This document shows positions 31,803 to 32,050 of a stretch of DNA of 64,000 bases, piece after piece (position 1 is the stretch's first letter; every line of letters starts with the position of its first letter). A program made the position numbers and the translations under genes. This stretch comes from Dictyostelium discoideum (lineage: Eukaryota): the NCBI GenBank assembly GCA_000004695.1, contig CM000154.2, forward strand, positions 4,544,001-4,608,000. The letters run 5' to 3'. Under the pieces are notes generated by a model. That model was given only the letters and a program-made list of their open reading frames with translations. It was not told where the DNA came from and made no database searches.

Positions 31803-32050
31803 GAATAGTTACATCAATATCAAGGTCTTTAGTTAATCTTAATTGTTTAGTTTTGTTTTGATGATAAAACTACTTTCGAAATGTCGAGTATTTTGTCAGC
31901 CAATACAATGGGGTCACAATCCAAATATGTTGTGTTGTTTAAATTTAAAAATAATTCAAATTATGACCAAATTGTAGAGGAAAGCAAAATACTCTGAATT
32001 TTTAAAGTAGTTATATCCTAAAACAATAACTAAAGACCTTGATATTGATT
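31803..32050. mobile_element. Foldback/MITE-like element. About 245 bp, with 23-bp perfect terminal inverted repeats and extended imperfect inverted arms.
   Basis: The left end ATCAATATCAAGGTCTTTAGTTA (31812..31834) is the exact reverse complement of the right end TAACTAAAGACCTTGATATTGAT (32020..32042). The arms stay complementary further in: TTGTTTTA / GATGATAAAACTACTTT against AAAGTAGTTATATCCTAAAACAA. There is also an inner pair, CGAGTATTTTG / CAAAATACTCTG. The element is non-coding and sits in a 1.9-kb AT-rich spacer. Confidence 0.45.

What the first reader, a model, noticed from the sequence alone, without database searches (positions are those of the whole stretch)
31803..32050. A ~245-bp foldback element with 23-bp perfect terminal inverted repeats, a candidate MITE or hairpin-RNA locus
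ATCAATATCAAGGTCTTTAGTTA at 31812..31834 and its exact reverse complement at 32020..32042 bracket a segment whose arms stay imperfectly complementary for about 50 nt more. The segment also has an inner complementary pair, CGAGTATTTTG / CAAAATACTCTG. The whole region can fold into a long imperfect hairpin. It is non-coding and intergenic. It could be a non-autonomous DNA transposon, a source of hairpin small RNA, or a pre-miRNA-like locus.
Basis: seen in the sequence. Interest (0 to 1): 0.55.

Follow-up and report, generated by a model that had tools for sequence, protein, structure and literature searches.

The report
Strain-variable decaying palindrome in Dictyostelium intergenic DNA

Summary
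The inverted repeat is real. The whole 237 nt folds into one long imperfect hairpin (RNA -85 kcal/mol, z -12.6). It is the only sizeable non-low-complexity perfect inverted repeat in the 64 kb.

The window is D. discoideum AX4 chromosome 5. The element lies between a SID-1-family gene and jcdA, which are transcribed divergently.

Syntenic loci from eight other assemblies show that the hairpin sits inside a ~1.0-kb insertion found only in D. discoideum proper. That insertion is absent from D. cf. discoideum, D. citrinum and D. firmibasis. Within D. discoideum there are three alleles:
- AX4 type, which has lost 22 nt of the right arm
- a 176-nt version that has lost the inner right arm
- a 658-bp deletion that removes the hairpin entirely

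I found no target-site duplication, no precise empty site and no second copy in ~166 kb of Dictyostelium DNA. There was no Rfam hit and no match to 34 published mature miRNA sequences.

Best reading: an eroding, probably neutral foldback relic. A young hairpin-RNA locus remains possible (~0.2). Genome-wide copy number and small-RNA reads could not be tested. Interest is low to moderate.

The parts
31813..31835 (.). Left terminal arm (segment A), perfect 23-nt inverted repeat ATCAATATCAAGGTCTTTAGTTA
   Evidence: One G>T substitution in strain L013, not compensated in its right arm.
31836..31852 (.). Unpaired 17-nt bulge (segment B, ATCTTAATTGTTTAGTT). Its partner has been deleted from the AX4 right arm but survives in strain L013.
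   Evidence: Fold. The four-way arm alignment A2 shows a 22-column gap only in the AX4 right arm. The L013 fold pairs this segment.
31853..31940 (.). Left interior arm (segment C), imperfectly paired
   Evidence: Helices listed. Identity is 67% to the right arm and 87% to the L013 left arm.
31941..31948 (.). Apical loop of the foldback
31949..32026 (.). Right interior arm (C'). This part is deleted in strain L013.
32027..32049 (.). Right terminal arm (A'), exact reverse complement of 31813-31835
31288..32303 (.). Non-coding insertion of ~1016 bp that carries the hairpin. It is present only in D. discoideum proper. Boundaries are approximate (about +/-15 bp) because the junctions are low-complexity.
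   Evidence: Absent from D. cf. discoideum (L008, L009), D. citrinum (L007, L012) and D. firmibasis (L006), while both flanks align. Anchor-to-anchor distance is 1292 bp in AX4 against 234-288 bp in the outgroups.
31545..32202 (.). 658-bp segment (hairpin plus T-rich flanks) missing in D. discoideum assembly L014; a secondary deletion
   Evidence: L014 is sister to the hairpin-bearing L013 (98.4% against 96.9-97.5% to AX4).
31670..31722 (+). T52 run ending in G, 90 nt upstream of the hairpin base. It resembles the T-run/G start-site motif described for Dictyostelium pri-miRNAs and mRNAs. Its length varies between strains.
   Evidence: longest homopolymer in the window, but there are 18 T>=15+G motifs in 64 kb. 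Motif definition from PMC6161686. It is 15 nt shorter in L010 and only T14 in L013.
31881..31997 (+). 38-codon ORF across the hairpin apex; judged to be chance
   Evidence: It is not in the protein collection, alone or spliced to an upstream ATG exon. Both ATGs are lost and the 3' part deleted in L013.

Best explanation
The element is a single-locus, long imperfect DNA palindrome. Ancestrally it was about 260 bp with arms of about 118 nt; in AX4 it is now 237 bp. It arrived as part of a ~1.0-kb non-coding insertion in the promoter region shared by the divergently transcribed SID-1-family gene and jcdA. The insertion happened on the stem lineage of D. discoideum proper, after the split from D. 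cf. discoideum. Since then it appears to have evolved without detectable constraint. It has been eroded by deletions of the kind long AT-rich palindromes suffer (hairpin or cruciform formation during replication): 22 nt of the right arm lost in AX4, the inner right arm lost in L013, and the whole 658-bp block lost in L014. The inner arms (67% identical) are more diverged than the age of the insertion allows, while the outer ~45 nt are 93% identical. From this I infer that the element was already an imperfect, TIR-like foldback when it arrived, meaning a relic of a foldback or MITE-like element or a copy of a hairpin from elsewhere, and not a fresh in-situ inverted duplication. Shown here: the structure, lineage restriction, allelic decay, absence of TSDs and absence of local copies. 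Inferred: neutrality, the deletion mechanism and the mobile origin. If the region is transcribed, the RNA would fold into about 85 bp of dsRNA and could feed the RNAi machinery incidentally.
For: Structure and rarity. Organism and locus: jcdA = Q54FM1 / XP_635559.1 on a 5,125,352-bp record. Lineage restriction: the hairpin is 237/237 identical in a second D. discoideum assembly, L010. It has no hit in L006-L009 or L012 although both flanks align. All four outgroup loci have the same compact junction, which indicates one gain. Allelic decay: the L013 hairpin is 176 nt and L014 lacks 31545-32202. The distance matrix makes L013 and L014 sisters, so the absence in L014 is a secondary deletion. Arm alignment: the outer A+B segments match 39/42 between arms and the inner C segment 52/78 (Fisher p = 0.0014). 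Inner C matches 68/78 between strains against 52/78 between arms (p = 0.004). Of the 10 strain differences in the left arm, the right arm sides with AX4 four times and with L013 four times, so there is no arm-to-arm homogenisation. The one substitution in the L013 terminal stem is uncompensated. No TSD. No other copy by blastn, tblastx or nhmmer in ~166 kb. No Rfam match even at E<=1, no tRNA and no DUSE motif nearby. None of 34 published mature miRNA sequences maps to the window at 4 or fewer mismatches.
Against: Neutrality rests on only three haplotypes. The hairpin-bearing alleles AX4 and L013 both keep a long terminal duplex (23 bp perfect in AX4; about 42 bp in L013, where the A stem itself is interrupted by the uncompensated G>T), so a function that needs only that stem is not excluded. 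The element is a GC-richer island (26% against ~10%) in AT-rich spacer and has a T52-G motif 90 nt upstream. Both are features reported for Dictyostelium miRNA loci (PMC11014262; PMC6161686). Genome-wide copy number could not be examined, so a dispersed family cannot be excluded. The excess divergence of the inner arms could instead reflect faster mutation near a palindrome centre.
Confidence: 0.55

Rival explanations
1. It is a young hairpin-RNA gene (a proto-miRNA or hairpin-siRNA module). Pol II would start at the G that follows the T52 run (31722). The transcript would fold into the 237-nt hairpin, and the Dicer-like DrnB/RbdB microprocessor would cut 21-nt duplexes, most plausibly from the perfect 23-bp basal stem. 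The module was gained recently and is being reshaped or lost between strains.
For: The hairpin is strong: -0.36 kcal/mol/nt, which passes the < -0.2 criterion used for Dictyostelium miRNAs. It is intergenic and GC-richer than the spacer, as reported for amoebozoan miRNAs. A T-run/G motif lies 90 nt upstream; TSSs were mapped 116 and 281 nt upstream of mir-5p for mir-1177 and mir-1176 respectively. Edelbroek et al. 2024 describe gain and loss of whole miRNA 'modules' between D. discoideum and D. firmibasis, with shorter orthologous spacers, and treat hairpins longer than 200 nt as probably newly evolved miRNAs. The presence/absence pattern here matches that. The two hairpin-bearing alleles both retain the terminal duplex.
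Against: The locus is not among the published loci I could check. These were 34 mature sequences and all listed chromosome-5 loci at 0.17, 0.59 and 4.87 Mb; a few Avesson 2012 entries could not be checked. There was no k-mer hit in the supplements of Liao 2018 or Edelbroek 2024. At 237 nt it is about twice the usual 75-125 nt. A 17-nt bulge sits directly above the basal stem. The T-run motif is common, with 18 in 64 kb, and its length is unstable between strains. The stem mutation in L013 is uncompensated and the element is fully deleted in L014.
Confidence: 0.22
2. It is a bona fide MITE, that is, a member of a dispersed family of non-autonomous DNA transposons mobilised through its terminal inverted repeats. 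This copy would be one insertion among many.
For: It has perfect 23-bp termini (ancestrally ~45 nt at 93% identity) with a much more diverged interior, which is the TIR-versus-interior pattern typical of MITEs. It is small, non-coding and lies near genes. It is lineage-specific. The arms were apparently already diverged on arrival (inference).
Against: No target-site duplication of 3 bp or more in either allele. The unit gained or lost is ~1016 bp or 658 bp, never the 237-bp element, and those larger units have no terminal inverted repeats. No second copy in 64 kb plus eight 12.8-kb loci by blastn or nhmmer. The 20-mer found only five single-arm chance matches in metagenome contigs.
Confidence: 0.12
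3. It is a functional DNA-level or coding element: a cis-regulatory or cruciform site of the shared SID-1-family/jcdA promoter, or a small protein gene (the 38-codon ORF across the apex).
For: It lies in a divergent promoter region. An ATG-initiated 38-codon ORF spans the apex, and an upstream ATG exon with a GTAAG donor could splice into the same frame.
Against: The ORF and four spliced variants are absent from a 15-billion-protein collection that does contain the neighbouring AX4 protein. Both ATGs are mutated and the 3' half deleted in L013. The element is dispensable in L014 and in all sister species, which keep both flanking genes.
Confidence: 0.05

Closest known systems
Dictyostelid miRNA 'modules' and long young hairpin precursors (e.g. 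dfi-mir-1190, ppo-mir-1226; Edelbroek et al. 2024, PMC11014262)
   Same: An intergenic, GC-richer hairpin island. The whole module is present or absent between close relatives, with a correspondingly shorter spacer in those that lack it. The hairpin is longer than 200 nt. A T-run/G motif lies upstream.
   Different: No small-RNA evidence is available. It is not in the published lists I could check. MFE per nt (-0.36) is at the weak end of the published range. A large bulge sits next to the basal stem. It is eroded or deleted within the species.
MITEs / foldback-type non-autonomous DNA transposons, including MITE-derived miRNA hairpins of plants (PMC3086885, PMC8862332; from titles and abstracts only)
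   Same: Perfect terminal inverted repeats with a more diverged, still self-complementary interior. Small and non-coding. Located near genes. Lineage-specific.
   Different: No target-site duplication, no precise empty site and no second copy in the DNA examined.
thug-S-associated multicopy miRNA loci of D. discoideum (Avesson 2012 as cited in PMC6161686; Meier 2016, PMC4894637)
   Same: They show that transposon-borne hairpins can yield small RNAs in this species.
   Different: The published thug-S small RNAs (miRNA_can_D3 5p/3p) do not occur in the window. thug-S is described as having an intron, so it is a larger coding element. The thug consensus sequence itself was not available to me.
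Unstable long AT-rich palindromes, such as the palindromic AT-rich repeats known from other eukaryotes (general knowledge, not tested here)
   Same: A near-spacerless AT-rich palindrome with independent deletions that remove part of one arm or the whole structure in different lineages.
   Different: No evidence of rearrangement or translocation. The deletion mechanism is inferred only from the end products.

Membership tests
MITE (non-autonomous class II transposon) | Terminal inverted repeats | tested here: met
   23-bp perfect termini. Ancestrally the outer ~45 nt match 39/42 between arms.
MITE (non-autonomous class II transposon) | Target-site duplication flanking the termini | tested here: not met
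   The flanks are ...AATAGTTAC | element | TTTCTTTATT... in AX4 and the same in L013. No direct repeat of 3 bp or more appears at any offset of +/-3; only the trivially palindromic AT.
MITE (non-autonomous class II transposon) | Multiple dispersed copies forming a family | tested here: inconclusive
   No other copy in the 64-kb window or in eight 12.8-kb related loci (blastn, tblastx, nhmmer). Only single-arm chance 20-21-mers turned up in metagenome contigs. The 34-Mb genome itself could not be searched.
MITE (non-autonomous class II transposon) | Insertion polymorphism with a precise empty site | tested here: not met
   Alleles without the hairpin lack 658 bp (L014) or ~1016 bp (outgroups), not the 237-bp unit.
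Dictyostelium miRNA gene | Hairpin precursor with MFE below -0.2 kcal/mol/nt | tested here: met
   -85.0 kcal/mol over 237 nt = -0.36 kcal/mol/nt. The criterion is quoted.
Dictyostelium miRNA gene | Discrete 5p/3p small RNAs of ~21 nt with a 3' overhang and precise 5' ends | not testable with these tools
   No small-RNA read data were accessible.
Dictyostelium miRNA gene | Dependence on DrnB/RbdB | not testable with these tools
   This needs mutant libraries (PMC6161686, PMC4894637).
Dictyostelium miRNA gene | Identity with a published locus or mature sequence | tested here: not met
   34 mature sequences were tested with no hit at 4 or fewer mismatches. The known chromosome-5 loci are elsewhere. 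No Rfam hit. The list is incomplete: some Avesson 2012 entries (e.g. mir-7099 to 7101) were unavailable.
Dictyostelium miRNA gene | T-rich tract ending in G upstream (pri-miRNA start-site motif) | tested here: inconclusive
   T52-G at 31670-31722, 90 nt upstream. The motif is also a general promoter feature, occurs 18 times in 64 kb and varies in length between strains.
Class I / DUSE-driven small ncRNA genes of Dictyostelium | DUSE motif (WCCCAYAA, recalled from memory) about 60 nt upstream | tested here: not met
   Four matches in the window, none within 1 kb of the hairpin, against 8.9 expected by chance.
Long DNA palindrome / inverted duplication | Two reverse-complementary arms with little or no spacer | tested here: met
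   85 bp paired and an 8-nt apical loop. Significant as DNA too.
Long DNA palindrome / inverted duplication | One arm pre-exists at the locus (in-situ duplication) | tested here: not met
   Neither arm is present in any outgroup locus. Both arms arrived with the ~1-kb insertion.

The most novel reading that the evidence does not exclude
The locus is a newly born hairpin-RNA (proto-miRNA) module caught in the middle of turnover. It would be gained on the D. discoideum stem and now segregate as three natural alleles: a 237-nt bulged hairpin, a 176-nt hairpin with a ~42-bp stem, and a clean deletion. It sits next to a SID-1-family (dsRNA-channel-like) gene. That would provide a natural allelic series for studying how Dicer substrates arise and die in Amoebozoa.
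Probability: 0.15. Interest if true: 0.55.

Novelty: new member of a known kind. Interest (0 to 1): 0.25.

Why it matters
As it stands, this is an ordinary piece of fast-evolving spacer DNA, and showing that prevents it from being over-read as a transposon or miRNA gene. Its modest value is as a dated example. A long palindrome was gained on one short branch and then eroded in three different ways in closely related strains. This illustrates both palindrome instability and the 'module gain/loss' pattern proposed for dictyostelid miRNA loci. If small-RNA data showed Dicer products from it, the three natural alleles would give a ready-made test of what a hairpin needs to become a miRNA precursor in Amoebozoa.

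Tried and rejected
- **Rfam:** no match at gathering thresholds on the whole window or at E<=1 on 31200-32700.
- **tRNA scan:** none, so this is not a tRNA-targeted retroelement context.
- **DUSE motif:** none near the hairpin.
- **Literature k-mer searches:** the terminal repeat and T-free k-mers gave no relevant hit in full texts or in the supplements of Liao 2018 and Edelbroek 2024. A positive control worked.
- **ddi-mir-7096:** its first 13 nt match 31834-31846, but the rest diverges, it fails at 4 or fewer mismatches, and the real locus is on chromosome 4. I treat this as chance.
- **Metagenome scan with a 20-mer of the terminus:** five contigs, each with a single arm, only 21-24 nt matched (21-22 nt exact), GC 29-37%. 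These are chance matches.
- **Origin from a neighbouring gene or nearby sequence:** blastn and tblastx of the hairpin and of the whole 1016-bp insertion against the window and all fetched loci returned only self-matches and low-complexity matches.
- **In-window targets for 21-mers from the hairpin:** only low-complexity matches.
- **Small ORFs in and around the hairpin, alone or spliced:** none is in the protein collection. A 52-codon minus-strand ORF at 31412-31570 is frameshifted in L013.
- **Terminal repeats or TSDs at the ends of the 658-bp and ~1016-bp units:** none convincing. A weak TGARA..T.G.AC resemblance between the two junctions of the 1-kb insertion is ambiguous.
- **The search for homologous proteins with jcdA exon 2:** returned only an Acytostelium protein, although Dictyostelium orthologues are in the collection.
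- **Papers not held:** Avesson 2012, Glockner 2001 and the genome paper. As a result the thug, DDT and Tdd consensus termini and a few miRNAs could not be compared.

Full report
**Observation**

The sequence ATCAATATCAAGGTCTTTAGTTA is at 31813-31835 and its exact reverse complement is at 32027-32049. These are the only two hits in the window at up to 3 mismatches, and none occurred in 100 shuffles.

The 237 nt between the outer ends fold into a single long imperfect hairpin:
- a 23-bp perfect basal stem
- a 17-nt unpaired bulge on the left arm (31836-31852)
- an 8-nt apical loop at 31941-31948, with 85 bp paired in total

Folding energies:

| Molecule folded | Energy (kcal/mol) | z-score |
|---|---|---|
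| 237 nt, RNA, plus strand | -85.0 | -12.6 |
| Minus strand (258-nt region 31803-32060), RNA | -84 | -11.6 |
| 237 nt, DNA | -49 | -10.6 |
| Interior without the perfect stem | -54.6 | -7.5 |

A scan for perfect inverted repeats of normal complexity within 500 nt finds this one (23 nt) and nothing else longer than 15 nt in the 64 kb.

**Where it is**

The window has about 20% GC, long homopolymer spacers and proteins rich in poly-Q/N. An exact look-up of the spliced product of 32700-32979 + 33070-33548 identifies it as D. discoideum JmjC protein A (Q54FM1 / XP_635559.1). The record is 5,125,352 bp, which I take to be chromosome 5 of AX4.

The hairpin lies in the 1.9-kb spacer between a minus-strand SID-1_RNA_chan (PF13965) family gene that starts at 30755 and jcdA at 32700. 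The two genes are transcribed divergently. The hairpin is a 26% GC island in flanks of 9-13% GC. No Rfam family matches it, even at E<=1. The window has no tRNA genes, and no DUSE-like motif lies near the hairpin.

**Comparative evidence**

The jcdA protein cluster gave access to syntenic 12.8-kb loci from eight other assemblies.

| Locus | Assembly | Substitution identity to AX4 |
|---|---|---|
| L010 | D. discoideum | 99.98% |
| L014 | D. discoideum | 97.5% |
| L013 | D. discoideum | 96.9% |
| L009 | D. cf. discoideum | 96.5% |
| L008 | D. cf. discoideum | 94.7% |
| L007, L012 | D. citrinum | ~92.5% |
| L006 | D. firmibasis | 89.6% |

L013 and L014 are 98.4% identical to each other, which makes them sisters.

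L010 carries the hairpin with 237/237 identity. The AX4 and L010 spacers differ only in homopolymer lengths and one substitution.

In both D. cf. discoideum and both D. citrinum loci the two ends of the spacer align, but about 1016 bp (window ~31288-32303) is missing. That segment includes the hairpin. The distance between two conserved anchors is 1292 bp in AX4 against 234-288 bp in these four loci, and all four share the same compact junction. No part of the 1016 bp has a hit anywhere in the outgroup loci. D. firmibasis instead has an unrelated 293-aa CfaA_B_C-family gene in this spacer.

These outgroups branch off successively and share one junction. The parsimonious reading is therefore a single gain of ~1 kb on the stem of D. 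discoideum proper.

**Alleles within D. discoideum**

L013 has a 176-nt version of the hairpin (L013:5161-5336). Its left arm is 87% identical to the AX4 left arm. Its right arm consists only of the complements of segment A (the 23-mer) and segment B (AATCTTAATTGTTTAGTTTT). This gives a stem of about 42 bp with a loop of about 85 nt (z -8.4).

The four-way alignment of arms shows two things:
- Segment B, the unpaired bulge in AX4, is unpaired there because the AX4 right arm has lost 22 nt.
- L013 has lost the inner right arm (C').

L014 lacks window 31545-32202 (658 bp: the hairpin plus its T-rich flanks), with the junction GGTTGTTT|CAAAAAAAAGAGAC. L014 is sister to the hairpin-bearing L013, so this absence is a secondary deletion.

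That makes three independent deletions, each removing part or all of the palindrome, in three lineages. The single substitution in the L013 terminal stem (G>T on the left arm) is not compensated on the right arm.

**Age and origin**

- Between arms, the outer A+B segments match 39/42, while the inner C segment matches only 52/78 (Fisher p = 0.0014).
- In C, the two strains' left arms match 68/78, significantly better than the two arms of one strain (p = 0.004).
- At the 10 sites where the left arms differ between strains, the right arm agrees with AX4 four times and with L013 four times.

The arms therefore diverged before the strains split and are not being homogenised.

The insertion is absent from L009. 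Its spacer divergence from AX4 (~18%) is only about 1.5 times the AX4-L013 spacer divergence (~10-13%). An inner-arm divergence of 33% is too large for a perfect palindrome born after that split.

I infer that the element was already an imperfect foldback with well-matched termini when it arrived. The alternative is that palindrome centres mutate faster. The TIR-versus-interior pattern is transposon-like, but the other MITE criteria fail:
- There is no direct repeat of 3 bp or more at the termini in either allele.
- The units gained and lost are 1016 bp and 658 bp, never 237 bp, and these units have no terminal repeats of their own.
- blastn, tblastx and a profile (nhmmer) built from the four arms find no other copy in the window or in the eight loci, about 166 kb in all.
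- A 20-mer of the terminus found only five single-arm chance matches in metagenome contigs.

The complete Dictyostelium genome could not be searched with these tools.

**Hairpin-RNA reading**

Several properties fit what is described for dictyostelid miRNA loci.
- They are intergenic and less AT-rich than the spacer. Whole 'modules' are present or absent between close species, with shorter orthologous spacers where absent. Hairpins longer than 200 nt are interpreted as young (PMC11014262).
- Pri-miRNA start sites are a G preceded by a run of up to 26 T. For mir-1177 and mir-1176 these lie 116 and 281 nt upstream of the 5p arm respectively (PMC6161686).

Here a T52 run ending in G (31670-31722) lies 90 nt upstream of the stem, and it is the longest homopolymer in the window. 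At -0.36 kcal/mol/nt the hairpin passes the published energy criterion.

Against this reading:
- The T-run/G motif is common (18 in 64 kb) and its length is unstable between strains (T37 in L010, T14 in L013).
- The hairpin is about twice the usual precursor length and has a large bulge next to the basal stem.
- None of 34 published mature sequences maps to the window at 4 or fewer mismatches.
- The known chromosome-5 miRNA loci are at 0.17, 0.59 and 4.87 Mb and their sequences are not in this window.
- Four deep-sequencing studies with hairpin-based discovery did not report this locus, as far as I could check. Avesson 2012 itself was not readable.
- The 13-nt identity with the 5' part of ddi-mir-7096 is chance.

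No small-RNA reads were available to me, so this reading is weakened but not refuted.

**Other readings**

A 38-codon ORF crosses the apex (31881-31997), and an upstream ATG exon with a GTAAG donor could splice into its frame. None of these products is in a 15-billion-protein collection that does contain the neighbouring AX4 protein. Both ATGs are mutated and the 3' half is deleted in L013. The element is dispensable in L014 and in all sister species. A required cis-regulatory or coding role is therefore unlikely.

**Verdict**

The palindrome is real and statistically striking. Biologically it is most likely an eroding, lineage-specific foldback relic carried by a ~1-kb insertion (confidence about 0.55).
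- A young hairpin-RNA module is the main rival (about 0.2).
- A live MITE family is about 0.1.
- A regulatory or coding role is about 0.05.

It is a new instance of known kinds of sequence, and interest is low to moderate. Two simple analyses would settle it: a BLAST against the whole genome and mapping of the existing small-RNA libraries.

Noticed in passing
window 31288-32303: About 1.0 kb of non-coding DNA is specific to D. discoideum proper. It is absent, with the same junction, from D. cf. discoideum and D. citrinum. Its source is unknown: it has no terminal repeats, no clear TSD and no similarity to anything else in hand.
   Followed up: partly
L006:4684-5565 (D. firmibasis, syntenic spacer): D. 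firmibasis carries a complete 293-aa CfaA_B_C-family (PF11912) gene in the same SID-1-family/jcdA spacer. It is absent from the other species, so this spacer is a hotspot of lineage-specific insertions.
   Followed up: partly
window 28942-30755 (minus strand); L007:2870-5161, L012:2902-5152: The left neighbour of the hairpin is a SID-1_RNA_chan family gene (the family of the dsRNA channel SID-1). In both D. citrinum assemblies it is called as two separate genes (251 aa + 239-242 aa) instead of one of ~432 aa. This could be a gene split, a frameshift or an annotation artefact.
   Followed up: no
window 31670-31721: A T52 homopolymer is the longest in the window. It is 15 nt shorter in the nearly identical assembly L010 and only T14 in L013, so its length changes quickly.
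   Followed up: partly
window 18919-19018 and 46602-46701: Two runs of exactly 100 N, which look like assembly gaps or masked stretches.
   Followed up: no
window 58688-58917 / 59913-60058 and 54054-54159 / 55308-55461: These are the longest inverted repeats in the window: arms of 100-145 nt, 80-97% complementary, ~1.0-1.2 kb apart, in many shifted registers. The shifted registers suggest simple triplet repeats on opposite strands and not structured elements.
   Followed up: no
window 31412-31570 (minus strand): A 52-codon ORF lies inside the species-specific insertion. AX4 and L013 differ there by a synonymous-looking change and L014 by an in-frame 9-bp deletion, but L013 also has a 1-nt indel, so it is probably not coding. 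It is not in the protein collection.
   Followed up: partly
window 33117-33545 (jcdA exon 2): The homology search with jcdA exon 2 returned only an Acytostelium protein, although eight Dictyostelium orthologues with 90% identity or more are in the same collection. Close relatives therefore appear not to be returned by that tool, and negative results from it should not be read as absence.
   Followed up: yes
window 31834-31846: A 13-nt identity with the 5' end of ddi-mir-7096 (AAUCUUAAUUGUU...). The remaining 8 nt differ and the real locus is on chromosome 4, so I judge it chance.
   Followed up: yes
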